IMG/VR virus record: IMGVR_UViG_3300028591_004246
Location: 64,001-93,199 of that record
DNA: 29,199 bases
Direction: 5' to 3' (one strand)
Source of the DNA: a virus
The position numbers and the translations under genes were made by a program. The stretch's first letter is position 1; the number at the start of each line of letters is the position of its first letter. This document shows positions 1,140 through 29,199 of the stretch, in pieces. The notes below the pieces were generated by a model that saw nothing but the letters and a program-made list of their open reading frames with translations, ran no database searches and was not told where the DNA came from.

Positions 1140-1154
1140 AAGGAGGTTTTTAAA

Positions 1155-3187: not shown

Positions 3188-3216
3188 ATTAATGTAAGAT
3201 AAAATAGTGACGAAAG

Positions 3217-7041: not shown

Positions 7042-7059
7042 AAATATTCTTCTCCTTTT
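7030..7059 (+). terminator. perfect 11-bp stem-loop spanning the Pol III stop codon, followed by TTTT (attenuator or partial terminator)
   Basis: GGAGAAGAATA (7030-7040), loop GAAA, TATTCTTCTCC (7045-7055), then TTTTG. The TAG stop at 7039-7041 lies inside the stem. The RBS GGAGATAAAATG of the next gene follows immediately. Confidence 0.5.
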
Positions 7060-7068
7060 GGAGATAAA

Positions 7069-7383
7069 ATGAATGAATATTGATTTGTACATGAGCCTAA
7101 ACCTGAATGGGTGCGGGAATTGCAAGAACAAGGAATTTTAACTGGCCCTGAATATGCTGCTGTAACTATAGTATATACTTTTTATACAGGAGAACATAAA
7201 GATTATCTTTATGATGGAGATGCTTTAATTAAAACTACAGAAGGTATTATTGCTCCAATTTCTTATCAGTGGATAGACAGAGCTAAAAGAAAAAATCCAG
7301 ATATGAAATTATATTCACCAGTTGAAGGACAAATGGAAGAAATTCTTGCATCTATTTATTCCAATTTGGGCAAAAATAAATAA
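7069..7383 (+). CDS. hypothetical protein (104 aa)
   Basis: ATG at 7069 with SD GGAG 7-8 nt upstream. The frame is open through a TGA at 7081-7083 (Trp) and joins the track ORF 7111..7383. No recognisable motif. Confidence 0.5.
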
Positions 7384-7445
7384 ATTGTAAATTTTTAATT
7401 ATATTATAAATAAGTGAGCACAAAATCTAGTATAGGGAGGAATAG

Positions 7446-7649
7446 ATGATTACACTTTATAGTACAGGTTGTCCTCGTTGTAAAGTTTTAGAGCAAAAAC
7501 TTCAACAAAAAAATATTGATTTTAATATAGAATCAAATATGCAAACTATTATTGATATGGGTTTTAGAGCAGCTCCTATTCTTAAAGTAGATGAAAACTT
7601 TTATGATTTTGGAGGAGCTATTAAGTGGGTAAATTCATATGAAGATTAA
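7446..7649 (+). CDS. nrdH: glutaredoxin-like / NrdH-type redoxin
   Basis: 67-aa ORF with a CPRC redox motif near the N-terminus and an overall thioredoxin-fold pattern. SD GGGAGG lies upstream. It sits immediately upstream of nrdD and overlaps it by 11 nt. Confidence 0.6.
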   Translation: MITLYSTGCPRCKVLEQKLQQKNIDFNIESNMQTIIDMGFRAAPILKVDENFYDFGGAIKWVNSYED

Positions 7650-9603: not shown

Positions 9604-10057
9604 AGGTATTATTTCTGAAGATTTTATTAATTATAAAAAACCTTGTATGGTTATAGAATTTCCAGTTTGTAAAAATTTTAAATGCGGGCAAGCCTTATGT
9701 CAAAACGATCCATTAATAAAATATCCAGATATAGAAATTAGTTATTCTCAAATTGTTAAAAAATACATGGAAAATGATATTACACAAGCTATTGTTTTTA
9801 TGGGGCTAGAACCTTTTGATAGTCCGCATGATTTATTTCTTTTAATTGAAGAATTTAGAAAATATACAATGGATGATATTGTAATTTACACTGGATATTA
9901 CTGGAATGAAATTTCTACATATGTAGCTATGCTAGGGGATTATAAAAATATTATTATTAAATACGGTAGATACATTCCCAATCAAACTCCACACTATGAT
10001 GAAGTTTTAGGTGTAAAATTGGTAAGTGATAATCAATATGCTGCAAAGATCAGTTAG
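9593..10057 (+). CDS. nrdG: anaerobic RNR activating protein (radical-SAM), NrdG-like
   Basis: ATG at 9593 overlaps the nrdD stop (ATGATAATTAA). The 154-aa product has segments matching NrdG (AIVFMGLEPF ~ GISLSGGDPL; DIVIYTGYYWNEI ~ DIWVWTGYKLDEL). The Cys cluster is PCMVIEFPVCKNFKCGQALC. The track ORF 9383..10057 is a spurious N-terminal extension that overlaps nrdD. Confidence 0.7.
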   Translation: MIIKGIISEDFINYKKPCMVIEFPVCKNFKCGQALCQNDPLIKYPDIEISYSQIVKKYMENDITQAIVFMGLEPFDSPHDLFLLIEEFRKYTMDDIVIYTGYYWNEISTYVAMLGDYKNIIIKYGRYIPNQTPHYDEVLGVKLVSDNQYAAKIS

Positions 10058-10065
10058 GAATAAAT

Positions 10066-10308
10066 ATGTATTATAATAATTATTTTAACAACAACAATAA
10101 TACTACTATTTTAATTATAATTATAGCTTGTGCTCTTATAGTTGGTTTAAGTTTTCTTTTATTTGCTTTTGGCTATTGGCTAATAACTTTAATAGCTGCT
10201 CAAATTTTTAATTTTATAATTCCATTTGAATGGACATATGCTTTAGGAGCTTATGCAATATTAATAATTATTAAATTATTTATGTTACCAAGTGGTCAAT
10301 CTAAATAA
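10066..10308 (+). CDS. small hydrophobic membrane protein (80 aa, 2 predicted TM helices)
   Basis: Asn-rich N-terminus followed by two long hydrophobic stretches. It is the last gene before a rho-independent terminator. Confidence 0.5.
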   Translation: MYYNNYFNNNNNTTILIIIIACALIVGLSFLLFAFGYWLITLIAAQIFNFIIPFEWTYALGAYAILIIIKLFMLPSGQSK

Positions 10309-10313
10309 AAAAT

Positions 10314-10362
10314 GCCTCAACAAAAGAATAAAAAATTCTAATGTTGAGGCTTATTTTTTTTT
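10314..10362 (+). terminator. rho-independent terminator closing the pol/nrd operon
   Basis: Stem GCCTCAACA (10314-10322) pairs with TGTTGAGGC (10342-10350). It is followed by TTATTTTTTTTT. Confidence 0.75.
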
Positions 10363-10390
10363 GACATTTTATTTAATAATATAGTATAAT
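10361..10390 (+). promoter_or_regulatory. near-consensus sigma-70 promoter for the downstream small-ORF/dUTPase/RuvC/SPFH operon
   Basis: -35 TTGACA at 10361-10366, an 18-nt spacer, and -10 TATAAT at 10385-10390. It is followed by the SD AAAGGAG and the ATG at 10414. Confidence 0.6.
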
Positions 10391-10413
10391 ATAATAAAAC
10401 GAAAGGAGATTAT

Positions 10414-10812
10414 ATGGGAGATGTTTCTTTAGGTACTGTATATGATATTAATAAAACTGTATATAGTAATCAATCAGAAAAAATGCCAGAAGCTTTAGTT
10501 CAATCCATGTTAAAAAAAGTTTCAAGCTGGTTTAAAACTAAAGCTCTTTGTGAAGCACAATATTATATGTTTCTTTGTCGTGATCGTAATGATTATACAA
10601 TTTTTAATTTTATAAAAAATAATCCAGAAAAAGGAATCAAAGAATTAATTGAATTAATTCAATCTCGTGGAATTCTTAAAGATATTGTCTATAATGAAAA
10701 ATATAATTATTATGAATTTTGGATTAGTATAGATACAGAAGGATTTAGACCAGAAATGTATATGTATATTCTTTTTCCATGTAATGAATTTGTAATCGAG
10801 ATTGGAGATTAA
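10414..10812 (+). CDS. hypothetical protein (132 aa)
   Basis: Intact ORF with a good SD. No recognisable motif. Confidence 0.5.
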   Translation: MGDVSLGTVYDINKTVYSNQSEKMPEALVQSMLKKVSSWFKTKALCEAQYYMFLCRDRNDYTIFNFIKNNPEKGIKELIELIQSRGILKDIVYNEKYNYYEFWISIDTEGFRPEMYMYILFPCNEFVIEIGD

Positions 10813-10814
10813 AT

Positions 10815-11075
10815 ATGGATATGATGATTGCTGCTCGTCCCGCAGCTAATATTACAATTATGATTACGCAAGAAACTCCAGAATATGATGCTCAAATGGT
10901 AGCTTCTCAAACTGTTTTTGAAAAAGATTTGGAAAAAACAATTAGAAAATATTTAAATGATTATAAAATTGAAACAATATCTATATACGGTCCTTTAGAT
11001 TATATTGAACATTTAGCTGATACTCTTGGTAAAACTTTTAATCGTGAAATTACTATAATTGGAGCTGGTGTATAA
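10815..11075 (+). CDS. hypothetical protein (86 aa)
   Basis: Intact ORF that starts 3 nt after the previous stop. Its TAATG overlaps the start of the next ORF. Confidence 0.5.
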   Translation: MDMMIAARPAANITIMITQETPEYDAQMVASQTVFEKDLEKTIRKYLNDYKIETISIYGPLDYIEHLADTLGKTFNREITIIGAGV

Positions 11076-11356
11076 TGATTAAATATCTTCTTAAAACAAC
11101 TGAAGAATATCGTCTTGAAACTGTAGAAGATGTAAAAACTTTTCATAAAAAACTTCAACAAGATGCTATAAATCAAGGATATACGCTAAGCTCTTTTGGA
11201 TATACGCAAAAGTCAACAACTGCTCGTGGAGAAATTATTGATGAATGGTGTGTTGTAAAAGTTATAAAAATATTCCAAAAAGATAAAGAACCAGAAAATG
11301 CACTTAATAAAATTACTTATGAAACTTTTAATAGAGAGGAGTTTAATGGAGATTAA
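11075..11356 (+). CDS. hypothetical protein (93 aa)
   Basis: Intact ORF. Its stop overlaps the dUTPase start region. Confidence 0.5.
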   Translation: MIKYLLKTTEEYRLETVEDVKTFHKKLQQDAINQGYTLSSFGYTQKSTTARGEIIDEWCVVKVIKIFQKDKEPENALNKITYETFNREEFNGD

Positions 11357-13902: not shown

Positions 13903-13948
13903 TAAAAAAATAAGGGGTACTCTTAATTGAGTACCCCTCTTTTTTTTT
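13903..13948. terminator. bidirectional rho-independent terminator between convergent early (+) and late (-) modules
   Basis: An A-run at 13903-13911 is followed by the stem AGGGGTACTC (13913-13922), the loop TTAATT, the stem GAGTACCCCT (13929-13938) and a T-run at 13939-13948. It is flanked by U-tracts on both strands. Confidence 0.75.
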
Positions 13949-15509
13949 ACCATTTATTATCATTTAAAGAGCATTGTAAGGCTTTAACAGATTCTCTACC
14001 AAAATATCCATCTACATCAATATCGTAACCTTTATTAACTAACCATTGCTGGAGAGCTCTTGAGGTCCCAGGGCCTCATTGACCATCAACTTCCGCACCA
14101 ACTTTACTTTGAATAGCTTCAACTAATTGAGAACCAGTTCCGCTATCATATTCAACATTATACATTCCTCAATGGTAATCTTTATTTCCAAGCCATTGAC
14201 CGCTAATAACACCATCTTCATAAGTACCTAATGTGTGCTGTAAATCAATAATAGTGTTTCATCCACCAATACCATCAATTTCAAGTTTTCCACCATCGCG
14301 ATTATTTTTTGGATCAGTTGAAACATCTGGTGTGAAATTTCCACTATCAGAATTACTATAATGAGGTCTAATAACATAGGCTACGTTACCCATATTACGA
14401 TATTTTTCTTGTACGGCATTACTAACATTACCTTCAATTGTTGGGAATCCAGAGCCATCAAAACTTCCTGTTGCAAATCCAATATGGTCAGTAGCTCCAT
14501 CTCAATCCCAATTAAAGATAACAATGTCTCCATACTGTACATTATATTTATCTACAGCATAATTTCTTGCGCCATTATTTAAAGCTAAATCTGTATTATA
14601 ACTTGGAAAACCTTTAACTACAACTCCTGCTTGCTCTAGACACCAACTTACAAACATGCAGCACCATCAAATTTCAACAGAAGGTCCAGCAAGCCAATCT
14701 TCATCTCATTTATCAGCTAATCAACGGCCATATTTTGAGCCTGGATTTGGATCATCAGGAGCATAATACCCTAATTCACCATAAGCAACGTCAATAACAC
14801 TTTTAGCTGTTCCACTCATTTGTTTACTTTCTTCTTCTTCTTTCTTTTCCTCTATTGGTTCATCAGTTTGAATAGTTTGTCCAGCAGCTATTCTTGCGGG
14901 ATAATCAATACAACATCAATCACAGTCATGATAACCACTAACATCATCAAACACGATATGACCATCAGACAATCTGATTCCGCCTTGCTGTCACATTCCG
15001 ATATCTCCAGCTTCGATTGGTCAAGAAGCTCTTCATCAAGCAATTCAATTAGCATAATCACGAAGTTCATCTGCATACATATTGTTTAATCATGCATTTC
15101 CACCAGTATAAAGTCCTGCATAATATCCTCTATTACGAAGAGTATCGCAAAAAACTTTAATAACATCAGTTAAAGCACGTGCTGATAATTGAAATTGTCT
15201 TGGATCTTCAACATCTGTATAACAAGGTAAATCAAATTTATATCCATCAAGCAAATCTGCAAAATGATTAGCATCTTTTCTTGAATTCTCTGTATCTGTA
15301 GTAACTGTATAATAATATGCTCCAACATGGAGTCCAGCAGCTACAGCTTTTTTATAATTATTTTCAAATTGTCCGTCTTTGTAACGTCCTAAATTTGTTT
15401 CATTTCCACCAGCTTTAATAATAACGCCTCAGAGTCCTCTTTGACGTTTTCAAGCTGCTAAATCAATATCTCCATCTCAATGAGAGATATCAAGAACAAG
15501 TTCTTTCAT
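13947..15509 (-). CDS. modular endolysin: GH25 muramidase + CHAP peptidase/amidase + PG_binding_1 cell-wall-binding domain
   Basis: ATG at 15509 with SD AAGAGGTG, and a TAA stop. Reading TGA as Trp gives a continuous 520-aa protein (about 17 TGA). The N-terminus MKELVLDISHWDGDIDLAAWK...IIKAGG matches the GH25 signature, with TGA at the conserved Trp. The middle region (...WCCMFVSWCLEQAG ... TDHIGFATG) is CHAP-like with Cys/His. The C-terminus VDGQWGPGTSRALQQWLVNKGYDIDVDGYFGRESVKALQ matches PG_binding_1. Confidence 0.85.
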
Positions 15510-15530: not shown

Positions 15531-15577
15531 TAAAAAAAGAGTCCCATATTTCAGGGACTCTTTTTATTTTATTTTTT
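15531..15577. terminator. stem-loop terminator between holin and endolysin genes (U-tracts on both strands)
   Basis: AAAAAAA, then stem AAGAGTCCC (15537-15545), loop ATATTTCA, stem GGGACTCTT (15554-15562), then TTTTATTTTATTTTTTT. Confidence 0.55.
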
Positions 15578-15859
15578 TAGATGAGCAGGCTGCTTTTTTA
15601 ATTCACGCATTAGTATGTCTGCTTGAAGAGCGGGTTGAGTAAAGCTGTTATTCTTCCATCAAGCAATAATAGAAGCTAAAATAACAGCAACACCTGAAGC
15701 AATTTCATAAATATTGTTTTCATCAATATCAATAGGAGTTCACCCAAGTAAAGCGCAAAAAGCATTAACTAATGCGATAAATAGAACGATGGTTCTAGCA
15801 ATAGTCCCAGGTTCAATTGAAAGCAATCCATCTAAATTAATTGTTTTTGCTTCAGCCAT
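15569..15859 (-). CDS. holin (phiLC3/LL-H-type, Phage_holin_1-like)
   Basis: ATG at 15859 with SD GAAGGTG. The 96-aa product has central hydrophobic segments (IVLFIALVNAFCALLGW, GVAVILASIIAWW) and a charged C-terminus (MRELKKQPAHLKK). It contains 2 TGA-Trp codons and lies immediately upstream of the endolysin. Confidence 0.7.
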
Positions 15860-15884: not shown

Positions 15885-16685
15885 TTATTCTCCAGAACTG
15901 CTTCCACCAGCAACGAGTTCATCAATCTCTGCATTAGTAGCAAATGTAATATCTGCATCTAAGACATATGGAGAAAGATCAACGAAGCCAGGAAGTACAT
16001 CGAACTTATATGCAGGAGACTGACCAGTTGTATCAGTATCAACAACAACTACATTGGTTCCAGCAGGATAGGTCTTAGTTGTTCCACTAGCATATTCAAC
16101 GAAATCGCTAGTAATAGTAAAGGAGTCAGTAACATTATAAACGTTACCAAGGACACCAACAGCTAGAGTTGGTAGACTTGCAAATGCTACAGAACCAGCA
16201 GGTTTATAAACAGTAGCAATCTGAGCAGCTACAGTGTCATCAACATAAGTTTTAACAGCTGCACCTGTTGGAAGTTTTTCGTCATTAGTAAGTGTAGTCT
16301 CAACGTCTTTATAAGCAGCAGCGTCAAGACCATGAACGGCTACATCTGAACCATTAACAGCAACAGTACCATTTGTAGCACCTTCGGCAACTGTAACATT
16401 AACTTTCTTGGTTGTGCTATCAGGAGTTAAATCTGTAGCATTAACTTGGACACCAAGAACTGGAATTGTTACGTCAACCTTTTTGTTAGCATCAGGAGTT
16501 AAATCAGCACTATTAACTTGAACACCAAGAATTGGAACTTCAACATCAACAGCACCATTAGAATCCTGTGTTAGAGCTGTACCGTTACGTTTAACAGTTT
16601 TTACTGCACCAGCAGGAGCAAAAGTTTCTGTAGCTTTCTGCCATAAACGTTGAATACCAGCCCAATCAACGAGTTTCATCGCCAT
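15885..16685 (-). CDS. hypothetical virion/structural protein with internal tandem 24-aa repeat (Ala/Val/Thr/Gly-rich, acidic)
   Basis: Intact 266-aa ORF (ATG at 16685, SD AAAGGGTG, TAA stop). The local GC content is clearly higher than in the flanks. Its Trp codons are TGG, with no TGA. A 72-nt unit is tandemly duplicated. Confidence 0.6.
   Translation of the reverse strand: MAMKLVDWAGIQRLWQKATETFAPAGAVKTVKRNGTALTQDSNGAVDVEVPILGVQVNSADLTPDANKKVDVTIPVLGVQVNATDLTPDSTTKKVNVTVAEGATNGTVAVNGSDVAVHGLDAAAYKDVETTLTNDEKLPTGAAVKTYVDDTVAAQIATVYKPAGSVAFASLPTLAVGVLGNVYNVTDSFTITSDFVEYASGTTKTYPAGTNVVVVDTDTTGQSPAYKFDVLPGFVDLSPYVLDADITFATNAEIDELVAGGSSSGE
16422..16565 (-). repeat. 2 x 72-bp imperfect tandem repeat inside the 266-aa gene
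   Basis: AGGAGTTAAATC...TTAGCATC at 16422-16493 matches AGGAGTTAAATC...TTAGAATC at 16494-16565. It encodes the duplicated ...VDVxxPxLGVQVNxxDLTPD... segment. Confidence 0.7.
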
Positions 16686-16702: not shown

Positions 16703-17329
16703 CTAATTACCTTGTATAATTTCTTCTATTTCATCATCTGTAACAGCTCTAAATCCAAAGTCCTCTAATGTTTGATTCCCTGTAAGTTCAACTCCATTAA
16801 TAGAAGGTTTATTTGTAACATAAAGATAATCTGTTACGCCTTCGAGTTCAACTTCTTCTAATCATTTTGTAATATCTTCTACACTTTGATTCATAACTAT
16901 TGCAGCTTGTGAAAACAAATTATAATCATCAGAAGCAATAAATTTATCTAAATCTATTGGGTCTGCGGAAATAGTAACTTGAAAATCATCTGTTCCAATT
17001 AAACTATTATTATCAACTTTTTCAATTTTACAAATAATATGTCCTTCTTGAATCATTTTTGATGGTCAAGCTATTTCTCAGACTGGATTAATTTTTAAAG
17101 TTTTATCTCCAACTTCAATACAATTAAATACATTATAGCCTTGAATATCTAATTCTTGATGATGCCATTTTAAATAAATTTTAGTAGAAGAAGTAAAAAC
17201 AGAAGCAGCTTCTTGAGAAAAAATTACTTTTAATTTTTTTCCATTAATATCATTGCCACTAAATATCATATCTTCTATTGGTTGATAAAAAGATTTTATT
17301 TCTAAAATACAAGAAGTTAATGATAACAT
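16703..17329 (-). CDS. hypothetical protein (208 aa; 3 TGA-Trp codons)
   Basis: Track ORFs 17078..17335 and 16862..17056 share one frame and are joined by in-frame TGA codons (17078-80, 17066-68, 16862-64). The frame continues to a TAG at 16703-16705. A likely ATG is at 17329 (GAGAGGTG upstream), or alternatively GTG at 17335. Confidence 0.5.
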
Positions 17330-17376
17330 ATTCACCTCTCCCTCTAATCAATTCTCACTAAAATTATTATAAAATA

Positions 17377-17405
17377 GGGCATCTTACTTTTTGTAAAATG
17401 CCCTA
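17377..17405. terminator. weak hairpin downstream of giant gene
   Basis: AGGGCAT (17377-17383) pairs with ATGCCCT (17399-17405) around a 15-nt loop. There is only a short flanking A/T tract. Confidence 0.3.
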
Positions 17406-17414
17406 AAATTTTTA

Positions 17415-20400
17415 TTAATTTTGTTCTGGAATATAGAAGTAGCCCTTGTCTGTATTATTATTAACAGAACCATCTTTACGATAAGCAATATAAATAGTAT
17501 GCGGGATTCCTTCCAAATTCTCAAACTTTGCTTCTTTATAATTCATATTAGAGTTACCATAAGTATTATAATTATAACTACTAGTAGTTGGTTGAGCATC
17601 TATCTTCATAATCAAATAGTCATAATTAGATTCTCCATATGAACAATATTTAATAATAAATGTATCATATCCATCAATATTAATCATACAAGTATCAGTA
17701 GTGTTATGTTGATTTGTATGTTTACTACTATAATATACTGTATGACCATCTACTTGAGTTCCACTATCAGCTCATTCATCATTGTTAAGGTCTATAGTAT
17801 ATTCTTGTTGAATTAATATTACTCTTAATATCTTTGTAGCAGTTATACTATTATCATAAATACTAGTAGCTGTAATAATTAAAGTATCTCCATCAGAAGC
17901 ATTTACTAATTTAACTAGACCATTAGTATCAATAGTAGCATTACCTTCAATAGACCAAGTCACTCCACGATATTGCGGGTCAACATCAATACTATCATCT
18001 GGGTCTATATAGACAGGAGTTAATTGAGCAACTCTATCATAAACATCTTGTTTATAACAATTGATAGTTTCAATATTGGAATCTAATCTTATAGATACTA
18101 ATTCTTTATCAGAGCCATCTTTAAAAGCGCTTAAAACATTTTTCCATTGATAAGCTGCTTTATATGTTGGGAATAAACTTAATGGAATATAAATAGAGGT
18201 TACACCAGTAGAAGAAAGATATGTATTAGTATCTGAATTAAAGTTTTTAAATACTCCACGAGCATAAACTGTTCTAAGATTTGTCGCATATCTAAATATT
18301 TCTGATGTAGAATTAACTGCTGAAAAATCTCAACCAGAAATATCTATTGTATTTAATTTATCACAATAATAAAATAATCCATATAAATCTGTGACTGTTG
18401 AGAATGTTCATTTAGACATATCGAGTTCAGTAATTGCTCTATCATATCAAAACATTTGTCTAATAGTAGTAAGATATGGAGTATGCATTTCTCCAAAATG
18501 AATACTTGTTAAACTAGGATTATTTGCAAACATAGCTTGCATTGTAGTGACATTTGTTACATCCAATAGATCAAAGTCAAAAGTTTTAATTCTTGTTTCA
18601 TTAAAAGCATGACTTAAACTAGTAATTTGTGAGGTTTCACTATTAATAATATCAAAAGAGCCAATCTGATAACGACCACTTAAAGTAATATAAGTTCCAC
18701 TAAAATTATTAAATGTAATATTTAATGTACCAGCGCTAATATCATTCATAGTAGAAATAATGGTACTAATTCTACCGCAATCACTACAATTAATAAATTC
18801 TGTATTGGTAATTTTACTATCATAACGAAACATGTTAGATACATTTGCGGAAGATGGTATATTTGGAATAATAACACTCGTTAAATTTGAACAATTTGCC
18901 ATTGAATATTGTAAATTATTAATTTTATCAACAGATAATTTTGTAGCATCAAGAGTTGTCATTTTACCTTCATAGAAAGCATAATTAAAATTACAATCTG
19001 CTTGTTCTCGCATATTTCATTTTGAAGTATCTAAAATAGTTAAATAAGGACACATATGGAAACAATATGTATAATTAGTTACATTTGAAAAATCCATATT
19101 AATATCTTTAAGATTATGAATTCCAGTTCCCGCATAAGCATAATTTAATGAATTAGGTTTATTTCTTTCATGAATAACAATTTCTCCATTATTACTTTCA
19201 ATTCAATCAATCATATTAATATTTTTAATTCTAATAGCACTTCTAATAAATTCATTAAAATTATTATTAATAGTACCTTCAACAATTAAAGTAATAAAAC
19301 TATTACTATTATTAGCTCCATTACAAATTCATCTAATTAAACTATTTCCACCTGTTCAACCATTACATTCAGAAAAATAAATATTTTGAAGAGCAGAACA
19401 ACCTTTTAAACAATCAGTAGCATAGCCACTACTATAATCATAAAGTTGCTTAGCATTCCTAAATTCAATTGTGTCAAGAGTAATACAATTTTCAAACATA
19501 TGAGTCATATGTAAATAATAAGCTCGATTAGCAACTACTAAATTTGGAAATTCTATATAATCAATAGACGTACATTCTGCAAACATATAATCATAATAAA
19601 TATCTGTTCCTTTATTAATATTCATATTATAATTTTCAGGGAAAATAATCGTTTCAAGTAAACCACATTGATAAAACATATATCTTGAATTTTGAATTTT
19701 AGTAAAATTAGAATAACCAATATCTACAGTTATTAAATTAATACATCCAGAAAACATATACTGAGTATTATTTACATTTCCAACATTTCAAGTAGTCATA
19801 TTTATTTCTGTAATAAATACTTCCATATTATTTACAGTAGTTCCAGAATCTTCCATAAATTTAATTTTAGTTATTGCTCTACAATTTTGAAACATGTAAG
19901 ACATATTAGTAATAGGAGAAATATCAGCATCATTTGTAGTTGTTGTTAATCTAAATCAATCAATATAATCTAATTCATAACAATCTTGGAACCAACCTTG
20001 CATACTAGTAATTCCAATAAATTTAGAATATTTTAAATCAATAGATTTTAAAGCTCAACATCCAGCAAATAAATATTGAGCGCCAGAATCACTTAATTCA
20101 ACAAAATTTACACTACTTAAAGTTAAATTTGTTAAAGAATGACAATTAATAAACATTCTGCTAATATTAGTAGCTCTACATGGATTAGTAAATAAATAAT
20201 TAATATTTAAAGTTTCAAGAGCATAACAATTTCCAAACATATATTCTAAGCTTCTATCACCAGCTCATGGATAACTATTATTATTTTGTCCAACTCTTGT
20301 AAATGAAACATTATGTAAATCTAAAGATTTTAAAGCTCTGCAATGATTAAACATACCTTGACAATACATAACATTAGAAAATAATCAGCCATTATCTCCT

Positions 20401-23400
20401 TGATGTGTATTAATTTCTTCAAGAGCATAACAATTTTGTAACATACAGGTTGTACTATAAGCACCAATCATATTAAAGTGTTGATTTAAAGTTTTTAAAG
20501 TATAACAGTGTTGAAACATATATTGGAAATTAGTACATTTTTGAGAAATAAAACTATCAGGAAAAGTTAATTCTTCAAGAGCATGGCATCCTTCAAACAT
20601 CCCGTCAACTCTTTGAAGATTTGCTCCTCCAAAGGTTTCTGGAATTCTAATTGATTGAAGAGCATAACATCATTGAAACATTCTTTCTGCACTAGTATTA
20701 TTTATCATTGTAAAAGTATCTGGAAGATATAATTCTTCAAGAGACTCACAATAACAAAACATATACGTAGCATTATCTCCACTTCATAAAGAAGTATTAA
20801 AATTAGGAATCAAGAGATGCTGTAATGATTTACAATTATAAAACATTTGATAAAAATCAGAACATTTAATAGTATTAAAACTTGTTAAATCTAACTCTTG
20901 TAAAGATTGACAATCATAAAACATTTCATACATTGTAGTAACATTTTCTGTTGAAAAATTATTAAAATCTAAAGTTTCAAGTTTAGTACATGCATAAAAC
21001 ATTTCATTAAAAGTAGTTACTAAATCTGTATTTAATGGAGTTAAATCAAAAGTTACTAAAGAAGAACAATAACAAAACATATTAGCACAATTAGTTAAAC
21101 TGTGTCAATATTCCATACCACTAATATCTAAAGTAGTTAAATTAATACAATCATAAAATAAATTAGATACATTTTTAATACTTTGTCCTTGAGCCCCTCA
21201 TGTAGACATATCAATAGTAGTACCTCTATATCCTCTAAATAAATTAGCAATACTAGTACAAGTATTAATATTTCACTCTTCTAGATGAAGATCAACACTA
21301 CTACCACAATAAGTTCCGCCTATTGATTTTCCTGCTAAATAGAAAGTATTATTTCTATAAATAACTCTTTGTAATGCTGAGCATCCTCAAAATTGAGCCT
21401 GAATATTTTTAACATGTTCAGTCCAAAAACTAGAAAGATTAATAGTTCGAATAGTATTAGCATTTAAAAACATTACTGCTCAATTAATAGAAGTAGTTGT
21501 TTCTTGAATATTTCATTGAGACAAATCTACACTAGTTCCCTTATAGCCACTAAACATTGCTACAAAACTTGTTTGCTGTGAAACATCTCAATGACCAATG
21601 TTTAAAGGAATTTTAATATTATAAAACATTTGCCCAACTGCTGTATAATATGTATATCTCATACTTCCATTAGTACCAGTATCAATTCATCTTGTAGAAT
21701 AGTTTTCATTACTTCAATAATCAATTGAATTAGCCTTCATTATAAATGAATTTGTTTCAAAAGTTTTAAGTTTAGAACAATTATAAAACATAGCTTCAAA
21801 ATTTACAACTTTAGAAGTATTAAATGTTTGAATTTTTAAAGTAATTAAATTAGTACATTCAGCAAACATTTCTGCCATACTTGTTCCTTGAGAAGTATCT
21901 CAATTAGAAAATATTAATTCCGTACCTTTATAACCATAAAACATTCTAATAAAATATTTCATTAAAGAGGTATTAAAAAGAGTCAAATCATGAATTTGTC
22001 CTATACTTCCATTGAACATGTCTCTAACATTTACACTAGAATGGAACTTTCATTCATTTGTTATATACAAATCCTGTAAATTAGAGGTTCCATAAAACAT
22101 TTCTGACATATTGGTACAAAATTCAATATTAAAGTCTGAAAGAGTAATTGTAATTGCCTTACAGTTATAAAACATTTGTGACATATTAATACAAGATTCG
22201 GTATTAAAATCTAAAAGAGTAACTGTAGTTGCTTTACATTCTCTAAACATCTGCGACATATTGGTACAAACTTCTGTATTAAAATTTGAAAGTGCGATTG
22301 TAGTTAATACAACATTTGTATTATAAAACATTTGATACATTGTTGTTACATGAGAAACATCTCAAGTAGAAATATTAATTTCTGGAAGAAAACATCCACC
22401 AAACATATAAGTCATATCTGTAACTGAAGAAGTATCCCAAGTATTAAATAAAATTCAAGGAGCATGTACATCTGCAAAAGTATTAATCATATTCTGTACA
22501 GAAGAAATATCTCAAGTAGATAAATCTAATCCATTAGTAAAAGTAGACAGCCTAAACATAGCTCTGAAAGAAGTAATATTAGAAACATTTCAATTTGCAA
22601 CGTTTATATTTGTAAAAGTTGAACGATACAACATTGCTCTTAAATTAGTAATATTACTAAAATCTAAATTTTCAGCTTCTAATGTTCCAATAGTAGAATC
22701 ATAAAAGAAACTAAAATCACTATCTCAACTAGGAATATTTGTTAAACTAGTAATATCTCAATCTGTAATATTAATTAAATTTGCAGTACATCCTCTAAAA
22801 ATAAATTGCATATTAGTACAATTACTCATATCTCAGGTTCTTAAATCTAATTCAAGACTAGATGTTCCCATTTCTCTAAACATACCACTAGCATTTAAAA
22901 CTTCACTAGTATCAAGAATATCTAATCCTTCAATAGACTGCAAACCTTTTAATTTATAAAACATATTCATACTATTAGCATTTAAAATAATAGGTGCTGC
23001 AACTTCAAAAGTAATAGTAATTGTTCCAGTATTATTATCTCAATTAGCTACTACTGGAGAACCTTGAGAACCAATAGCAATACCAGATTTTTGAATACCA
23101 TTTTCAAATATTATATGTTTAATTTTAGTATCTTCAAAATTACCATCTGTAACATTACTTCCATTTGCCATACGTTTAATAGTATAAGAAAATTCACCAC
23201 CAGAAATTAATCTAGAATTATATTTTTCTGGAAGAAGCGGAAAATCATAATATGTTTCTACTTTAATAGGAATATCTTCATTTCAAACAGTATACATATT
23301 TTGAACACCAGTATACATATCTTTAGGAAATTGCATTGGATATAAAACTATATTATAATCTAAGTAAGTAGGAGAGACATAGAAAAACGCTCTATCCTCA

Positions 23401-26400
23401 TTTGAATCAACACTACCATCCTTACGATAAAGTAAAGTAATAATATGCGGATTATCATCATAAATTTCATATACAACTGTAGTATATGCTGTACTTGGTT
23501 TTTGATAAGTATGATATTCACAATTAGAAGTTGATAATCCAGAAGTTTGATCGAGTTTACTAACAATTAAATAATCATAACTTGATTCTCCATTAGAACG
23601 AACTCTAATAGAAAATCTTGAATAACCTTGTATAGTTAAATAACAATAAGCATTTCCATTAGCAATATGATAATTAGAATTACTTTTATAAATTTGAGAA
23701 CCATTTATAGCATTATCACCATCTTCAATCCATTGGTCATTTAAATCAATAGATCAAGAAGCATCAGATAGGTGTTTAATAGAATATCCTTCTATTTCTG
23801 CATTTCTAGCAGTATCATAAAATTGTCCTATATCCATTTGCTGCATAGCTAAACAATTATATAAACCATTCTCTTTTTCAGTATAATTAAATAACGTTCT
23901 ATGTTTGCGGAAATCGAGGTATGTCATACTTTCACAACCAGAAAAAATTTCTCGCATATCCCGCAAATAATTAGAACACAATAATACTATATTAGTTTCA
24001 ATAGCTTTGCAATTCATCATCATTTGATAAGCTGAAACTACAGTGTTAAATATAATTTCAGGATAGGCTTCTTGTTTAATTTCTGTTAAATTATAACAAT
24101 TCTTAAACATTTTATCAGCATTTTTAATATACATAAAAGGAAATACTTTAGTAACTAAATCATATGTAGGAGCTGCACCTGTAGATTTTGTTCCTTTTGG
24201 TCAAATAATTTTTTCAAGTTCATAACAATTTTCAAACATTGATGACATATTACCAATATTTTCAGATGTTAAACCAAGATTACCATTATTATTATATGGT
24301 AATCCAGTAGCTTGAGCTAAATTATGATAAGTTTGGAACATTCAAGTACTTAAATCAATTTCTTGTAATTTTCTACAATCTTTAAATATTCTAACAAATC
24401 AATATTTTTGACTATTACTAGTATTTTCAGAAGGAGAATATTCGGTTGTAGTACCTCTTCAATCACCAAATTTTAGATTAACTAAAACTAAATTTTCAAG
24501 ATTATAACAACCATCAAAAGTTCCTTCAAATTCTTGAGTTGTATTATAATTAGTAATATCTATAGGTCTATCATTTGGAAATTTAATACTTGTAATTTTA
24601 CGACAATTATAGAAAGTTTCTTTTAATGAAGTTAATTGAATATCATAACCGCCATATTGTAATCAACTTCTACTATATCCTGTAATTCAATTATAACCAG
24701 CATTAGGATCAATCTTAGAAATAAATTTAGAAAAATCTATACTCATTTCTAAATTTTTACAATTATAGAAAGTTTGACTTAAATTTCATAAAACCATATT
24801 TTGAGAGCCATTACTTGATTTATCAAATTGACCATTAGTAGTAATACTCTTTAAATTAGTAATATCAATTAATGACCCACAATTATAAAACATTTGTTTA
24901 AATTGATTATTAGAATGTCTATCAACATAATAAGTTCAATTATTAGAAGTATAATATCTTCTAAATGCTAAATTAATTTTTTCAGGTAAAATAATATGTT
25001 TAACATTTATACATTCTTTAAACATTCCTTCATAACAAGGACCATTAAAAACATTTGAATATTTTAAATTAATTTCTTCTAAAGATTTACAATTATAAAA
25101 TAAATAAGAATAATCGTATAAATTTGTAAAAAAGAAATATTTTAAATCTAAATTTTGTAAAGATTCACAATTATAAAAACATCTACCTACTAATTCAGTC
25201 TTTCTTCAATAAGCACTAAAACCAAGAGGCTGAGCATATTGTCCATGTAAATCTGTAATTGTAATTAAGGATTTACAATTATAAAAAATTCTATCAAAAT
25301 TACAATATAAATAACAATTAGACATATCAAGTGCGGGAAGAGATTCACAATTTTCAAACATACTAGCAGCTTTTACAAGACGTCCATGAAATTCCATTTT
25401 AACAAAATCTAAATTAATTAAAGATTTACAATTACAGAACATATAAGAAACATCTGTGACACCTCTTGTTCTTCATCTATCAAAAATAATAGATATTAAA
25501 GATTCACAGTTTAAAAACATTTGATTTGTAGAGTATAATCATGGACTTTCAACATCTCCCATATCCAAAGATTGGAGATTAATACAGTCTTTAAACATTT
25601 TTTTAATATCTCTAGCCATATGCCAATTAAAATTAGATAAATCTAATTGAGTTGCCAAACAACCCTCAAATAAATTATTAAAATAAATATTTTCTTTATT
25701 AAATTGTGCGGTCAATTGCTCATAAATCACATCTGGCAACCAAGCAAAAATATAATCTTTCTTTCTTGGAAATATAATTGAAGAAATATCAATTTCTCTT
25801 AAATTATTACATCCAGTAAACATATATGACATATCTTGAACATTAATTGTATTAAAATTAGATAAATCTGCAAAAAGTAAGGAAGCACAATTATAAAACA
25901 TATAAGACATATCTATAACATTATTTGTATCAAAATCTTTAAAATCAATTAAACTTAAAGATTCACAATTACTAAATAAATGTGTCATATCTGTTACTTT
26001 AGAAGTATCTATATTTTCAGGAAGTATAAGTTCTTTAAGATTTTTACATCCATTAAACATATATTCCATATCTATAACGTTAGAAAAATTAAAATGAGAT
26101 AAATCAATATAATCAAATAATTCACAATTATTAAACATATAACTTGTATCAGTTAATGTTTGTAGTTCTAAATTAGATAAATCTACGGTAATAAGCGAAA
26201 AACATCCGTCAAACAAATGAGAAATATTTGTAATATTTTCCCATTGAATCTTATTGAAATTGTTTATGCGTCGTAATTCCCGCATATCATAAAAAGTATA
26301 TTCTGCATTATCTCTAATTACAAAATTTTCAGCTCTGGTTTGAATAATAATTTTTTTAGTGTCACTATTATAATAAATGTATGGCCCAACATATTCTATA

Positions 26401-29186
26401 TCATTAATAGTAGTTACATATTGAGTACCATGTGGACTAACAATTCTTGTTCTAAAGTCTATACTTTTAATTTCTTGTAAAGAAACACCTTTAGTTGCAG
26501 AATAATTTTCTATCATATTCCGCAATGCCATCCCTGAATAAAATATATTATTATCAAAGCCATATGTTCTTTCTAGCAGCTCTTGGGTTACAGCTCTTTC
26601 TCTAATATATTTTCCAGGCCCATCAATTAAACCAGTAACATTAATATTAAAATTAGGAATAATACTTTCTTTAGTAGTATCATATTTTGATAAAATAACT
26701 TCGTTATCATTGTTAAGAGGAAGCTTATATCAAGGTTCATCCGTTGTTAATTGTTCATAACCATCTGTCTTTTCATAACTTTTATTAATTATAACAACAT
26801 TTGCTGTTGGAATATAATTTTTTAAACATTTTCTTAAAGTAGAATTATAAGATTTTGTTGCTCTATTAATAGTTTTCATTCTTCCTCAATCAACATCTGA
26901 GAAATTAATAGAACGTAAATCTGAACAACCTTTAAACATAGTATCTAAACCATAGATATAATATCAATCATAGTACTTTTCATCATATCCTCTATGTGTT
27001 TTTCTATAATTAGTCACATCTTCAAGATATATTTCATCACAAGGATCTTGAAAAGGAATTAATTCTTCTCTTGTAACAACAGGATTCATTTTAAAATTAG
27101 TAATATCAGTTAATCTCTCATCATCATTAAACATATATGCATAATTACAACAATAACTAGTATTAATTTTTTCAAAAGAAAAATCTTCAAGATAAATCAT
27201 TCCAGAGAACATACCAGAACCATCTGCTGGAATATAAAATTCATTTTCTGGTGTTGCTACAATTAATGTTTTAGTATCATGGTCATAATCTCATGTTAAA
27301 CTATTAGAATAAACTTTTTTACTATATTCATCTACTCTAACAACCAAACTATTAGGAAGCGGGAATAATACATTCGTTCTTCATTCTATATGTTTTATTA
27401 CTTTTCCAGCAAATTGTTTACTAAAATTTTGACCTAAGAAATTATGCATAGAAGGATATTCATAATAAGGCTCTGGTTTGACTATACAATCTTCTCTAAT
27501 ATATCTACCTATTTGATGAAGATTTAATTGATAAGTTCTAATACCAGTATTTTGTTCTATCATATAATATGGTAAAGCTAATCCAATATCTTTTAAATAT
27601 CCATCTCTATTTTGGTCAAGACCTAATAAACTAGAAGCAGCATCTTTATTCATTCCTGCATCAACTGCTAATTTAAATAAATCTTGCATATAAGCTTGTA
27701 CGTATTTGTCTTGAATATAATCACTATATGGAAGATTTACTGCTGGAGTATATTGACTATTCATATTAGTAAACATACCCTCTTGTACCATATTACCAGT
27801 AGTTAAATCCATTACTTCTTGAGTAACTGCTTCCGTATATGACATTCTTCAATCAATACGGAGTCCAGCTTCTACACTATTTAATAAATCATATCCTGGC
27901 ACTCCACTAATATTATATCCCATAAATGCACTACTAGAAGTCATTGTATTAACTTCTGTATAAGTAGTAATACTAGGTTTAATTCCTTCAACTGTTTGAA
28001 AATCTTGTCGTGGACTATAAGCATCATAGTGTGCAATTTGTCATCCATTTACACTTAACATAGTTCTAGAACCTGTTAAAATTTCTTGTAAATTTCAACA
28101 ATTATGAAAAGGAGAATTTATATGCAATGTTTCTTTACCAGAATAGAAGAAATTAATTCAATTAGTTCAATCAATTTTCTTTAATTGGTAACATTCAGAA
28201 AACATTCCTGAAATATTATTAATTGAAAAAACTGGACTATCAAAAGTAAATTCTTCAAGAGAAATACAAAAATGAAACATAAAACTTACATCTTTAAGAG
28301 ATGGAACTTTTCAAAATAAATTTTTAGGATTTGTTTTTAAACTATAACAATGAGAAAACATGTTTTTCATTGAAACCAAATTTGGAGCAAATATAGGTTC
28401 AATATTAACAGTAGTTAAATTAGGACAGTATGCAAATGTTTCTTGCATATATGTAACTTTACTGATATCAATACCTTGAAGATTTGCTTCTACGAGATTC
28501 GGACATTCAGAAAACATTTGAGTCATATTACTAGAACGTAATACTTTATCTCCATAAAATCTAAAATTAACAAATCCACATTGAGAAAACATTCCAATCA
28601 TTTCACATTCATGATAAAAAGTTGGAAGTTTAACCTCAACTAAACAAGAACAGTTTTTAAACATTCAATTTAGAATTCTAACATTGGAAGCGTCCCAAGA
28701 GGTCAAGTCAATTGTATTAATACTTAAACAACCTTGAAATCAACCCTGAAAACTTTTAACTAATGAAGTATCTAAATTACCTATATTAAAGATAAGTCAT
28801 AATTCACTCATACCAGAAAACATATTGGTCATATCTTCTGGAACTACAACTTTTCCATTAAATACAATATTTTTAATTTCACTATTATAAGCAGACCATG
28901 GATTAGTAAGATATTCTTCTGATAGGTAGGTAACTTTATCAGGATCACCAATTACTAATGTCCCATGGTTTGTAATAGCCCAAGGACAATCACCATTATA
29001 TCCAGAATAAATAATTTCTCCACCTCGAATATATTTTTCAAGGTCAGACATTTCTTTTCCTGGAAGGTCATCAATAGCAGAAGAAAATTCGTAAGGCATA
29101 TAGGTTTCATCTCGCCCATTCTTCTCACGAATAGCATCTGCAATATCCGTTAAAACAGATTTTTTAATAAATACTTCTTCTGCCAT
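17415..29186 (-). CDS. giant BspA/DUF285-type leucine-rich-repeat protein (3,923 aa with TGA=Trp); likely tail fiber / host-adhesion protein
   Basis: ATG at 29186 with SD AAGGAG 6 nt upstream. All 14 minus-strand track ORFs between 17415 and 29186 lie in one frame. I read every gap between them codon by codon and found only TGA (61 in total), with no TAA or TAG until the TAA at 17415-17417. The product consists of dozens of ~25-aa repeats of the form ..MFxxCxxL..lDlSnFnTSnVtdMsxMF.. The conserved S-W-D-x-S-N-V tryptophans are encoded by TGA. Confidence 0.75.
22103..22330 (-). repeat. three near-identical 75-bp tandem units (DNA-level) within the giant gene
   Basis: TGACATATTGGTACAAAATTC..., TGACATATTAATACAAGATTC... 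and CGACATATTGGTACAAACTTC... occur with a 75-nt period. Each unit encodes one 25-aa DUF285 repeat. Confidence 0.7.
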
Positions 29187-29199
29187 TTTATCTCCTTTT

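What the first reader, a model, noticed from the sequence alone, without database searches (positions are those of the whole stretch)
17415..29186. A single 11.8-kb ORF encodes a 3,923-aa BspA/DUF285-type LRR protein and was hidden by TGA fragmentation
The ORF track shows 14 fragments of 60-330 aa. They share one frame, and every gap contains only TGA, which I checked codon by codon. The result is one of the largest phage ORFs, running from a good SD and ATG at 29186 to a TAA at 17415. The product is built almost entirely of ~25-aa DUF285/BspA-like repeats (MF.nC.sL.slDlSnFnTsnVtnMsyMF). This repeat family is abundant in surface proteins of Mollicutes and some Firmicutes. Its position upstream (in transcription order) of the holin-endolysin cassette is the canonical location of tail fiber and receptor-binding genes, so a host-adhesion or receptor-binding role is inferred.
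Basis: partly seen in the sequence, partly recalled or inferred. Interest (0 to 1): 0.8.

Follow-up and report, generated by a model that had tools for sequence, protein, structure and literature searches.

The report
Giant TGA-recoded BspA phage tail gene
A phage that reads the stop codon TGA as tryptophan in its late genes carries one intact 11.8-kb gene for a 3,923-residue leucine-rich-repeat (BspA/DUF285) protein in its tail-fibre region; it is real and probably helps the virus stick to its host, but both the recoding and phage BspA proteins are already known.

Summary
The minus-strand frame 29186→17415 is 3,923 codons with an ATG start, an AAGGAG Shine-Dalgarno site and a TAA stop. It contains 61 in-frame TGA and no TAA or TAG (chance about 1e-122). 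A 97-99 % identical IMG/VR contig carries the same ORF (3,924 codons, 62 TGA) with an in-frame TAA five codons upstream of the ATG. The two copies differ by one codon indel, dN/dS is 0.18, and five Trp positions switch between TGA and TGG. Pfam gives DUF285 E=1.3e-164 and BspA LRR_5 8e-45, with about 82 repeat units. The window is a phage. Its early replication genes use 0 TGA and 37 TGG; its late genes use 83 TGA and 23 TGG. The GH25/CHAP endolysin implies a walled host, not a mollicute. This is the pattern Borges et al. published for TGA-recoded 'Agate' phages. In the relative, the gene order is tape measure, tail proteins, fibre, two smaller BspA paralogues, the giant, holin, lysin. The giant has no signal peptide or anchor. 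It carries two copies of a β-sandwich with no Pfam model that usually ends BspA proteins. A virion adhesin or receptor-binding role is likely but unproven. Larger phage DUF285 genes exist (6,417 aa). Verdict: a new member of a known kind.

The parts
17415..29186 (-). Giant ORF: 3,923 codons plus TAA, 61 in-frame TGA read as Trp; BspA/DUF285 LRR protein
29192..29197 (-). Shine-Dalgarno AAGGAG, five nt upstream of the ATG
   Evidence: An in-frame TAA upstream of it is seen in relative L010
28830..29186 (-). N-terminal leader module (aa 1-119), shared at 32-36 % identity with the two upstream BspA paralogues. Motif LxDIAxAIRxK...YxPxExxxAI, then YSGxxGxCxW
   Evidence: The AlphaFold model was unusable (pLDDT 47)
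28077..28829 (-). LRR block 1 (aa 120-370)
27219..28076 (-). Non-repeat insert A (aa 371-656); no Pfam or PHROG match
26223..26870 (-). Non-repeat insert B (aa 773-988); no Pfam match
23895..26222 (-). LRR block 2 (aa 989-1764), with irregular repeats
23352..23753 (-). β-sandwich copy 1 (aa 1812-1945), CUB/MAM/CBM-like. This domain is normally C-terminal, so the copy probably marks a fusion or duplication boundary
18306..22970 (-). LRR blocks 3-4 (aa 2073-3627); the most regular DUF285/LRR_5 repeats
17817..18089 (-). Possible Ig-like (Big_2-type) domain, aa ~3700-3790; weak
   Evidence: aBig_2 E=0.0022, below the cut-off
17418..17771 (-). β-sandwich copy 2 (aa 3806-3923) at the C-terminus; 39 % identical to copy 1; dN/dS 0.03
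17375..17405 (-). Terminator-like hairpin (13 pairs plus a T-run) directly after the TAA-TAA stop
16703..17329 (-). 208-aa ORF downstream of the giant (3 TGA); function unknown (phrog_24985)
15885..16685 (-). 266-aa ORF, GC 0.40, no TGA; phrog_38190, function unknown
15569..15859 (-). SPP1-type holin (2 TGA)
13947..15509 (-). Endolysin with GH25, CHAP and PG-binding domains (17 TGA). The first TGA aligns with the Trp of the GH25 DxSHWQG motif
69..11356 (+). Early replication module (primase-like, RecJ, YorL-type Pol III alpha, NrdD, NrdG and small ORFs) written in standard code: 0 TGA, 37 TGG

Best explanation
The region is one real late gene of a large tailed phage. The phage is related through its replication genes to SPbeta and the large Enterococcus phages, and it behaves like the published TGA-recoded 'Agate' phages. 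Its early replication genes are written in the standard code. Its late structural and lysis genes use TGA for tryptophan, so they can be translated in full only after the infected cell has been switched to reading TGA as sense. In this lineage the switch is probably made by a phage tRNA with anticodon UCA.

The gene encodes a 3,923-aa protein with no export or anchoring signal. It has an N-terminal leader shared with two smaller BspA paralogues encoded just upstream, about 82 BspA/DUF285 leucine-rich repeats in four or five solenoid blocks, and two copies of a CUB/CBM-like β-sandwich, one in the middle and one at the C-terminus. The layout looks like two 'LRR array + β-sandwich' units joined in series.

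The gene sits after the tape-measure, tail-tip and fibre genes and before the holin and lysin. I therefore infer that the protein is assembled onto the distal tail as a long adhesin or receptor-binding appendage, with the LRR surfaces and β-sandwich modules binding host cell-wall ligands.

Shown: ORF integrity, TGA=Trp, family membership, purifying selection, gene order and the early/late code split.
Inferred: presence in the virion, ligand binding and the code-switch mechanism.
For: ORF integrity: 3,923 codons with no TAA/TAG, P about 1e-122. An independent 64.7-kb contig has the same ORF, differing by one codon indel, and its start is bounded by an upstream in-frame TAA.

Selection: dN/dS is 0.18 overall, below 0.5 in every segment and 0.03 in the C-terminal domain.

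TGA=Trp: five TGA/TGG interchanges between the two strains. TGA and TGG occupy the same repeat position...S/T-W-D-x-S.... The first TGA of the lysin aligns with W of the GH25 DxSHWQG motif in 1JFX.

Family: DUF285 538 bits against a cut-off of 25; LRR_5 152 bits against 27.7.

Code split: early genes 0 TGA and 37 TGG, late genes 83 TGA and 23 TGG, Fisher p=1e-18. The same layout occurs in L002, whose polymerase is 56 % identical. L002 also carries a tRNA with anticodon UCA beside its late genes.

Walled host: GH25+CHAP+PG-binding endolysin and an SPP1-type holin.

Tail context: tape measure >2,853 aa, large tail proteins, a 679-aa fibre-like protein with Phage_head_fibr-type repeats, and three tandem BspA paralogues.

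No export signals: no hydrophobic N-terminus, no TM-like segment (maximum 19-aa Kyte-Doolittle mean 1.11) and no LPXTG.

Precedents for the repeat in virions: a P2-like Klebsiella phage baseplate protein combines Tail_P2_I, Big_2 and LRR_5/DUF285. Two DUF285 proteins were detected in purified AaV particles (PMC7507832).
Against: There is no direct evidence that the protein is in the virion. Nothing in it matches a known tail-attachment or fibre domain, and PHROGs and Pfam are silent on the N-terminus and the inserts. The N-terminal model failed at pLDDT 47. The leader motif also heads BspA-like proteins in bacterial contigs with no obvious phage context.

In the cultured Butyrivibrio phage Bo-Finn the DUF285 gene sits beside the terminase genes, not in the tail module, so position is not a fixed rule. 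The β-sandwich matches are generic, with TM-scores of 0.35-0.56.

No suppressor tRNA was found in the window or in about 55 kb of the close relative. The one found in L002 is a type II tRNA with a long variable arm, which is not the shape of a tRNA-Trp. The host is unidentified.
Confidence: 0.6

Rival explanations
1. The gene is real and late-expressed, but its product is not a structural tail component. It would be an accessory adhesin or decoy released at lysis. Alternatives are a capsid or tail decoration that tethers virions to mucus, biofilm matrix or animal-host surfaces, or a cell-associated protein that blocks superinfection.
For: [quoted passage not shown] Phage DUF285 genes are scattered outside tail modules in jumbo phages and in Butyrivibrio phage Bo-Finn. 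There is no recognisable tail-attachment domain. A terminator-like hairpin sets the gene apart from the downstream ORFs.
Against: The gene lies inside a contiguous same-strand block of tail, fibre and lysis genes. It has no signal peptide or anchor for display on a living cell. Three tandem paralogues share one N-terminal leader, which looks like alternative cargoes for a single docking site. A P2-like phage fuses the same repeat type to baseplate protein gpI.
Confidence: 0.22
2. There is no phage-specific code switch. The element infects, or resides in, a host that itself uses genetic code 4 (a mollicute or similar), and the DUF285 protein is an ordinary mycoplasma-type surface protein gene.
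For: DUF285 was defined on Mycoplasma proteins, and TGA=Trp is the mollicute code. GC content is 28 %.
Against: The endolysin has GH25, CHAP and peptidoglycan-binding domains, which would have no target on a wall-less host. Nine early genes (3,224 codons) use TGG 37 times and TGA never, whereas late genes prefer TGA 83 to 23. The replication genes resemble those of phages of walled Firmicutes such as SPbeta and the Enterococcus phages. There is no lipoprotein or signal sequence. The same split is published for phages of standard-code hosts.
Confidence: 0.06
3. TGA in this phage is decoded as an amino acid other than tryptophan, for example serine or selenocysteine through a type II tRNA(UCA), or glycine as in code 25. 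The protein sequence given here would then be wrong at 61 positions.
For: The only suppressor tRNA seen in the lineage (L002:22953-23046) has a long variable arm, G73 and anticodon UCA. ARAGORN calls it tRNA-SeC, and it is not tRNA-Trp-like.
Against: All five polymorphic TGA sites alternate with TGG and with nothing else. TGA falls at the conserved Trp position of the repeat, where other units have TGG, and at the invariant Trp of the GH25 motif. The tRNA comes from a relative whose polymerase is only 56 % identical, not from this phage.
Confidence: 0.05
4. The long frame is an artefact or a decayed gene. Either the TGAs are genuine stops that split it into many small ORFs or pseudogene pieces, or the length comes from misassembly of repeats.
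For: The standard-code ORF track shows 15 fragments. The protein is repetitive.
Against: The chance of no TAA/TAG is about 1e-122. dN/dS is 0.18, with third-position bias in 105 of 192 differences. A second contig from another sample has the same length, differing only by a 3-nt indel. Internal DNA repeats are at most 88 % identical and short.
Confidence: 0.02

Closest known systems
TGA-recoded 'Agate' phages (Borges et al., bioRxiv 10.1101/2021.08.26.457843; published as 'Widespread stop-codon recoding in bacteriophages may regulate translation of lytic genes')
   Same: In-frame TGA=Trp is concentrated in the structural and lysis genes, while the replication genes stay in standard code. The genome is low in GC. 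TGA is not used as a stop. A tail protein just upstream of the lysis cassette is preferentially recoded. Relative L002 has a TGA-containing homing endonuclease among its early genes. A suppressor tRNA(UCA) occurs in some members.
   Different: Clade membership is defined by terminase phylogeny, which I could not test because no terminase is in the sequence held. That paper does not mention BspA/DUF285 proteins or a gene of this size. No suppressor tRNA was found in this phage's available sequence.
Vibrio phage vB_pir03 ORF200 (6,417 aa, DUF285/'PARCEL') and the BspA-family proteins of other jumbo phages (PAU gp103, Aeromonas LAh10, Edwardsiella pEt-SU)
   Same: These are very large phage-encoded DUF285/BspA LRR proteins of unknown function.
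   Different: They share only 21-24 % identity with the giant. [quoted passage not shown] They are not in a defined fibre-to-lysis position. None is reported with tandem paralogues or the C-terminal β-sandwich.
Klebsiella phage ST16-OXA48phi5.4 'tail protein' (Tail_P2_I + Big_2 + LRR_5/DUF285)
   Same: A BspA-type LRR serves as the distal part of a recognised phage baseplate protein, next to the tail-fibre gene. This is the best precedent for the proposed role.
   Different: It is 1,008 aa with a recognisable gpI attachment domain. The giant has no recognisable attachment domain and about 82 repeats.
[quoted passage not shown]
   Same: Same repeat family, similar sizes (2,000-6,500 aa), and frequently the same C-terminal β-sandwich.
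   Different: The bacterial proteins carry signal peptides and anchors or dockerins (for example PF00404 in many hits). The phage protein has none and sits in a phage late operon.
Carbohydrate-binding modules decorating siphophage tails (lactococcal phage tail extension, neck-passage and fibre proteins; F5/8 type C domains)
   Same: The giant's duplicated β-sandwich gives its best viral structure matches to such proteins and resembles CBM, CUB and MAM folds.
   Different: TM-scores are modest and there is no sequence similarity. Ligand binding has not been tested.

Membership tests
DUF285 (PF03382) / BspA-type LRR_5 (PF13306) repeat proteins | Profile HMM match above the curated gathering score | tested here: met
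   DUF285 538.5 bits (cut-off 25, 18 stretches); LRR_5 152.3 bits (cut-off 27.7, 8 stretches)
DUF285 (PF03382) / BspA-type LRR_5 (PF13306) repeat proteins | Tandem units of about 25-26 aa with an MF..C..L...DLS.F.TS.V core | tested here: met
   About 82 units with the consensus SYMFYNCKSLQTIDLSNFNTSNVTNM, at a spacing of mostly 25-27 aa
Secreted or anchored bacterial BspA surface proteins | N-terminal signal peptide or lipobox, plus a C-terminal anchor (LPXTG, T9SS CTD, dockerin, TM) | tested here: not met
   The N-terminus is acidic and hydrophilic (MAEEVFIKK...). The maximum 19-aa hydropathy is 1.11. There is no LPXTG. The C-terminus is a β-sandwich. This was a simple scan, not SignalP.
Stop-codon-recoded (code 4) phages with an early/late code split | In-frame TGA at sense positions in late genes | tested here: met
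   83 TGA in five late genes and 61 in the giant, with no TAA/TAG
Stop-codon-recoded (code 4) phages with an early/late code split | TGA corresponds to tryptophan | tested here: met
   Five TGA/TGG swaps between strains. TGA sits at the Trp position of the repeat and at the Trp of the GH25 DxSHWQG motif.
Stop-codon-recoded (code 4) phages with an early/late code split | Early or replication genes compatible with the standard code | tested here: met
   0 TGA and 37 TGG in 3,224 early codons, Fisher p=1e-18 against late genes. The same holds in L002.
Stop-codon-recoded (code 4) phages with an early/late code split | Phage-encoded means of code change (suppressor tRNA-UCA, RF1, TrpRS) | tested here: inconclusive
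   None was found in the window or in L001, L010, L011, L012, L015 or L016. A tRNA with anticodon UCA is present in the more distant relative L002. Only part of the genome is available.
'Agate' clade of Borges et al. | Placement in the large-terminase phylogeny | not testable with these tools
   No terminase is in the window or the fetched loci, and their genomes are not in the searchable collections (megablast against phages found no match).
Phage tail fibre / receptor-binding protein | Gene located in the tail module downstream of the tape-measure and baseplate genes | tested here: met
   Gene order in the relative contig: tape measure >2,853 aa, then 1,817, 542, 552 and 747 aa (weak phrog_1887 'tail'), a 679-aa fibre-like protein, BspA x2, the giant, holin and lysin
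Phage tail fibre / receptor-binding protein | Homology to a known tail-attachment or fibre domain | tested here: not met
   Pfam and PHROGs find nothing outside the LRRs. The N-terminal model was too poor to search.
Phage tail fibre / receptor-binding protein | Physical presence in virions and a role in adsorption | not testable with these tools
   This needs proteomics, cryo-EM or genetics.

The most novel reading that the evidence does not exclude
This phage lineage may use BspA/DUF285 leucine-rich-repeat solenoids as its main receptor-binding apparatus, in place of classical trimeric β-helical fibres. Three tandem paralogues share one N-terminal docking leader. The largest is a 3,923-aa double unit with two lectin-like β-sandwich heads, and its 61 TGA codons make its synthesis strictly dependent on near-complete reassignment of the stop codon late in infection. 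If so, BspA LRR arrays ending in this unannotated β-sandwich would be a distinct, widespread and so far uncharacterised class of phage and bacterial adhesin modules.
Probability: 0.3. Interest if true: 0.6.

Novelty: new member of a known kind. Interest (0 to 1): 0.4.

Why it matters
Gene callers that use the standard code break this gene into about 15 pieces. The intact protein is absent from a 5.8-billion-protein database, and only short fragments of its relatives appear there. Recoded phages therefore hide their largest and probably most host-specific proteins from routine annotation.

If the BspA paralogues are the receptor-binding proteins, they would be a handle for host prediction in an abundant group of gut or rumen Firmicute phages.

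The gene is also a stringent natural reporter of how completely TGA is reassigned. With 61 TGA codons in one reading frame, only about 54 % of ribosomes would reach the end even at 99 % read-through per site (my arithmetic).

The duplicated β-sandwich belongs to a family with no Pfam model and more than 2,300 cluster representatives, usually at the C-terminus of BspA proteins. It deserves a family definition.

Tried and rejected
- Megablast of 25 kb against 50,697 phage records found no match.
- An exact-sequence lookup of the polymerase found nothing on record.
- The genome-collection scan with the polymerase found no close prophage. The best was a 35 % Bacillus SPbeta-like element, so the host is not identified.
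- ARAGORN and Rfam found no tRNA or other RNA in the window or in six loci of the close relative.
- PHROGs and Pfam found nothing for the non-repeat segments (aa 1-129, 371-656, 700-980, 1945-2100) or for the 1,379/1,817-aa and 542-aa upstream proteins.
I then used TGA-free segments.
- The N-terminal 129-aa AlphaFold model had pLDDT 47, so I ran no fold search on it.
- I asked whether the N-terminal leader is phage-specific. It also heads BspA-like proteins in high-GC bacterial contigs with no clear phage context, so I rejected it as evidence for virion attachment.
- I considered a missing PHP domain or a split polymerase. The ORF simply continues upstream in frame with a non-ATG start, so I rejected this.
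- I considered code 25 (TGA=Gly) and rejected it on the TGA/TGG swaps and the conserved Trp positions.
- The word-index search suggested the β-sandwich was rare, with only 8 hits. The exhaustive search corrected this to 2,343 hits.

Full report

Yes. The minus-strand frame from 29186 to 17415 is 11,772 nt. It starts with ATG and ends with TAA (followed by a second TAA). It contains 61 in-frame TGA and no TAA or TAG, whereas the other two frames of that strand contain 219 and 452 TAA/TAG. With this base composition, the chance of 3,923 consecutive codons without TAA/TAG is about 1e-122.

AAGGAG lies five nt upstream of the ATG. The window ends 13 nt upstream of the ATG, so the start cannot be bounded inside the window. 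A 97-99 % identical IMG/VR contig (IMGVR_UViG_3300031992_000092, 64.7 kb; loci L001, L010-L012, L015) has an in-frame TAA five codons upstream of the same ATG.

Under the standard code the frame breaks into 15 ORFs of 61-330 aa.

**2. Is it a functional single gene?**

The relative contig carries the same ORF, with 3,924 codons and 62 TGA. The two copies differ at 170 codons (102 synonymous, 68 non-synonymous) and by a single one-codon indel. Of 192 nucleotide differences, 105 are at third positions.

Nei-Gojobori under code 4 gives dS 0.049, dN 0.009 and dN/dS 0.18. The ratio is below 0.5 in every segment and 0.03 in the C-terminal domain. dS is patchy along the gene (0.003-0.21), which suggests recombination between strains.

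DNA repeats within the gene are short and only 60-88 % identical. Together with the independent contig, this makes assembly collapse unlikely.

**3. What does TGA encode?**

Tryptophan, on three lines of evidence:
- At the five Trp-codon positions that differ between the strains, the alternatives are always TGA and TGG.
- Within the repeats, TGA occupies the ...S/T-W-D-x-S... position that other units fill with TGG.
- With TGA masked as X, the first TGA of the endolysin aligns with the Trp of the GH25 DxSHWQG motif in cellosyl 1JFX.

**4. What is the element?**

It is a phage.

The plus strand (69-13,894) encodes a DnaG-like primase, RecJ, a YorL-type Pol III alpha, NrdD, NrdG, dUTPase, RuvC and an SPFH fragment. 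The polymerase is 35-37 % identical to those of SPbeta and the ~140-kb Enterococcus phages.

The minus strand encodes a GH25+CHAP+PG-binding endolysin, an SPP1-type holin, two small ORFs and the giant gene. The endolysin implies a host with peptidoglycan, not a mollicute.

Trp codon use is sharply split. Nine early genes (3,224 codons) have 0 TGA and 37 TGG. The five late genes have 83 TGA and 23 TGG (Fisher p=1e-18). RuvC, at the end of the plus-strand block, has 3 TGA and 0 TGG.

A more distant relative, L002 (polymerase 56 % identical), shows the same split. It also carries a tRNA with anticodon UCA next to its late genes. ARAGORN detects it, and the Rfam tRNA model scores 39 bits against a gathering score of 29. 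Its anticodon loop is CU-UCA-AA, and it has G73 and an encoded CCA. It has a long variable arm, so it is not shaped like a tRNA-Trp. I leave that unexplained.

No tRNA was found in the window or in about 55 kb of the close relative.

This behaviour is what Borges et al. described for TGA-recoded 'Agate' phages of about 127 kb from cattle and other animals:
- Structural and lysis genes accumulate TGA.
- Replication genes stay in standard code.
- TGA is avoided as a stop.
- Only about 35 % of such genomes have a detectable suppressor tRNA.

They do not mention BspA/DUF285. I could not test clade membership because no terminase is in the sequence held.

**5. What is the protein?**

Pfam gives DUF285 E=1.3e-164 (18 stretches) and BspA-type LRR_5 E=8e-45. 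A profile built from the protein's own repeats finds about 82 units with the consensus SYMFYNCKSLQTIDLSNFNTSNVTNM. Non-repeat segments lie at aa 1-119, 371-656, 683-747, 773-988, 1765-2072, 3277-3354, 3453-3527 and 3628-3923.

There is no signal peptide-like N-terminus, no TM-like segment and no LPXTG. This differs from bacterial BspA surface proteins.

The word-index search found only 8 homologues. An exhaustive HMMER search found 2,343 cluster representatives (1,375 at E ≤ 1e-10), mostly at the C-terminus of proteins of 300-2,500 aa. Six of the seven top carriers are themselves BspA-type LRR proteins. One more example, in L024, is on a standard-code contig of 44 % GC.

So 'LRR array + C-terminal β-sandwich' is a recurrent architecture. 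The giant looks like two such units in series, with the internal copy marking an old fusion or duplication boundary. That last point is inference.

*N-terminus.* The first ~115 aa are shared at 32-36 % identity with two smaller BspA paralogues encoded immediately upstream in the relative contig (1,217 and 1,186 aa, with 14 and 15 TGA). The giant's first ~730 aa are collinear with those paralogues.

The leader motif LxDIAxAIRxK...YxPxEMAxAI also heads BspA-like proteins in unrelated high-GC bacteria, so it is not phage-specific. Its AlphaFold model was unusable at pLDDT 47.

**6. Genomic position**

Walking the relative contig gives this order:
- tape-measure protein of more than 2,853 aa
- proteins of 1,817, 542 and 552 aa
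- a 747-aa protein with a weak phrog_1887 'tail protein' hit
- a 679-aa fibre-like repeat protein (Phage_head_fibr-type repeats; 'virion structural protein' PHROG)
- BspA paralogue of 1,217 aa
- BspA paralogue of 1,186 aa
- the giant gene
- ORFs of 208 and 266 aa
- holin
- endolysin

. A 13-pair terminator-like hairpin follows the giant's stop codon.

**7. Mechanism**

The most likely reading (confidence about 0.6) is a virion-associated distal-tail adhesin or receptor-binding appendage. It would be made only after the infected cell reads TGA as Trp.

Precedents:
- A P2-like Klebsiella phage has a baseplate protein made of Tail_P2_I, Big_2 and LRR_5/DUF285.
- Two DUF285 proteins were detected in purified particles of the algal virus AaV (PMC7507832).

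Weaknesses:
- There is no recognisable attachment domain.
- There are no proteomic data.
- In Butyrivibrio phage Bo-Finn the DUF285 gene lies by the terminase genes, not in the tail module.

The main rival (about 0.2) is a non-structural accessory adhesin or decoration. A code-4 host, a non-Trp reading of TGA and an artefact are each unlikely, for the reasons given in the rival section.

**8. Novelty and score**

Stop-codon recoding confined to late genes is published. Phage-encoded BspA/DUF285 proteins are already in 85 of 50,697 deposited phage records, including a 6,417-aa gene in Vibrio phage vB_pir03 annotated as 'PARCEL'.

All homologues of the giant are only 22-33 % identical. The intact protein is absent from the protein database, presumably because standard-code gene calling fragments it.

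New here:
- the specific combination of a giant double-unit BspA protein as the third of three tandem paralogues in the fibre-to-lysis region of a TGA-recoded Firmicute-type phage
- recognition of the unannotated β-sandwich family

I rate it a new member of a known kind, with interest 0.4.

Noticed in passing
window 69-11356 (+) versus 13947-29186 (-): Trp codon use is split by module. Early replication genes have 0 TGA and 37 TGG, and late genes have 83 TGA and 23 TGG (Fisher p=1e-18). RuvC (11768-12247) has 3 TGA and 0 TGG, and dUTPase has 1 TGA. No listed gene ends in TGA, but ORFs were called with only TAA/TAG as stops; the large early genes have no in-frame TGA at all.
   Followed up: yes
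L002:22953-23046 (-): In a relative whose polymerase is 56 % identical, a tRNA with anticodon UCA (reads TGA) sits beside the late genes. It is 61 % GC in a 31 % GC genome and has G73 and an encoded CCA. It has a long variable arm (type II, called tRNA-SeC by ARAGORN), so it is not tRNA-Trp-like. Which amino acid it carries is unclear.
   Followed up: partly
window 17418-17771 and 23352-23753 (-): The duplicated β-sandwich belongs to a large family with no Pfam model: 2,343 cluster representatives at E ≤ 1e-3. It is usually the C-terminal domain of BspA-type LRR proteins. Conserved motifs are GES.YDY and YRKDGSV..N.D.
   Followed up: yes
window 10815-11075 (+): An 86-aa early ORF gives a weak, sub-threshold hit to baeRF_family5, a bacterial archaeo-eukaryotic release-factor-like family (E=1.2e-3, 19.5 bits against a cut-off of 27). 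It would be interesting in a stop-codon-recoded phage if real, but it may be chance.
   Followed up: no
window 15885-16685 (-): This 266-aa ORF between the giant-gene region and the holin has 40 % GC, against about 26 % for its neighbours, and no TGA. It matches only an unknown-function PHROG (38190) and may be a recent acquisition.
   Followed up: no
window 7069-7383 (+): This 104-aa ORF has a TGA at codon 5. It is the only TGA in an ORF of the early block (the one in the 9293-10057 ORF lies in a spurious upstream extension). Either the ORF starts later or is spurious, or one early gene is recoded.
   Followed up: no
L002:16251-16811 (+): A GIY-YIG-like endonuclease ORF with 3 TGA and 0 TGG lies among TGA-free early genes next to the ribonucleotide-reductase ORFs. 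This matches the recoded intron endonuclease that Borges et al. describe in Agate phages.
   Followed up: no
window 17375-17405 (-) and 13912-13939 (both strands): A strong terminator-like hairpin lies directly after the giant gene's TAA-TAA stop. A bidirectional terminator lies between the convergent early and late blocks.
   Followed up: partly
L015:1-8562 (+): The tape-measure protein of the close relative is more than 2,853 aa (17 TGA) and is cut by the locus end, which implies a very long tail. The next gene encodes 1,817 aa.
   Followed up: no
window 17415-29186 versus L010:10001-21775: Synonymous divergence between the two strains is patchy along the giant gene (dS 0.003 in aa 2073-2700, 0.10 in aa 989-1764, 0.21 in aa 3806-3923). 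This suggests recombination mosaics within the gene.
   Followed up: partly
window 3235-3535 (+): The Pol III alpha ORF continues in frame about 100 codons upstream of the first ATG (HNHTYFSNLRLLD..., the PHP region). The true start is therefore a non-ATG codon, and ATG-only ORF calling truncates the gene.
   Followed up: partly
L018:3933-6959 (Klebsiella phage ST16-OXA48phi5.4): The annotated 'tail protein' combines Tail_P2_I, Big_2 and BspA LRR_5/DUF285. BspA-type repeats are thus fused to a baseplate protein in P2-like prophages; 16 Klebsiella phage records matched the LRR query.
   Followed up: partly
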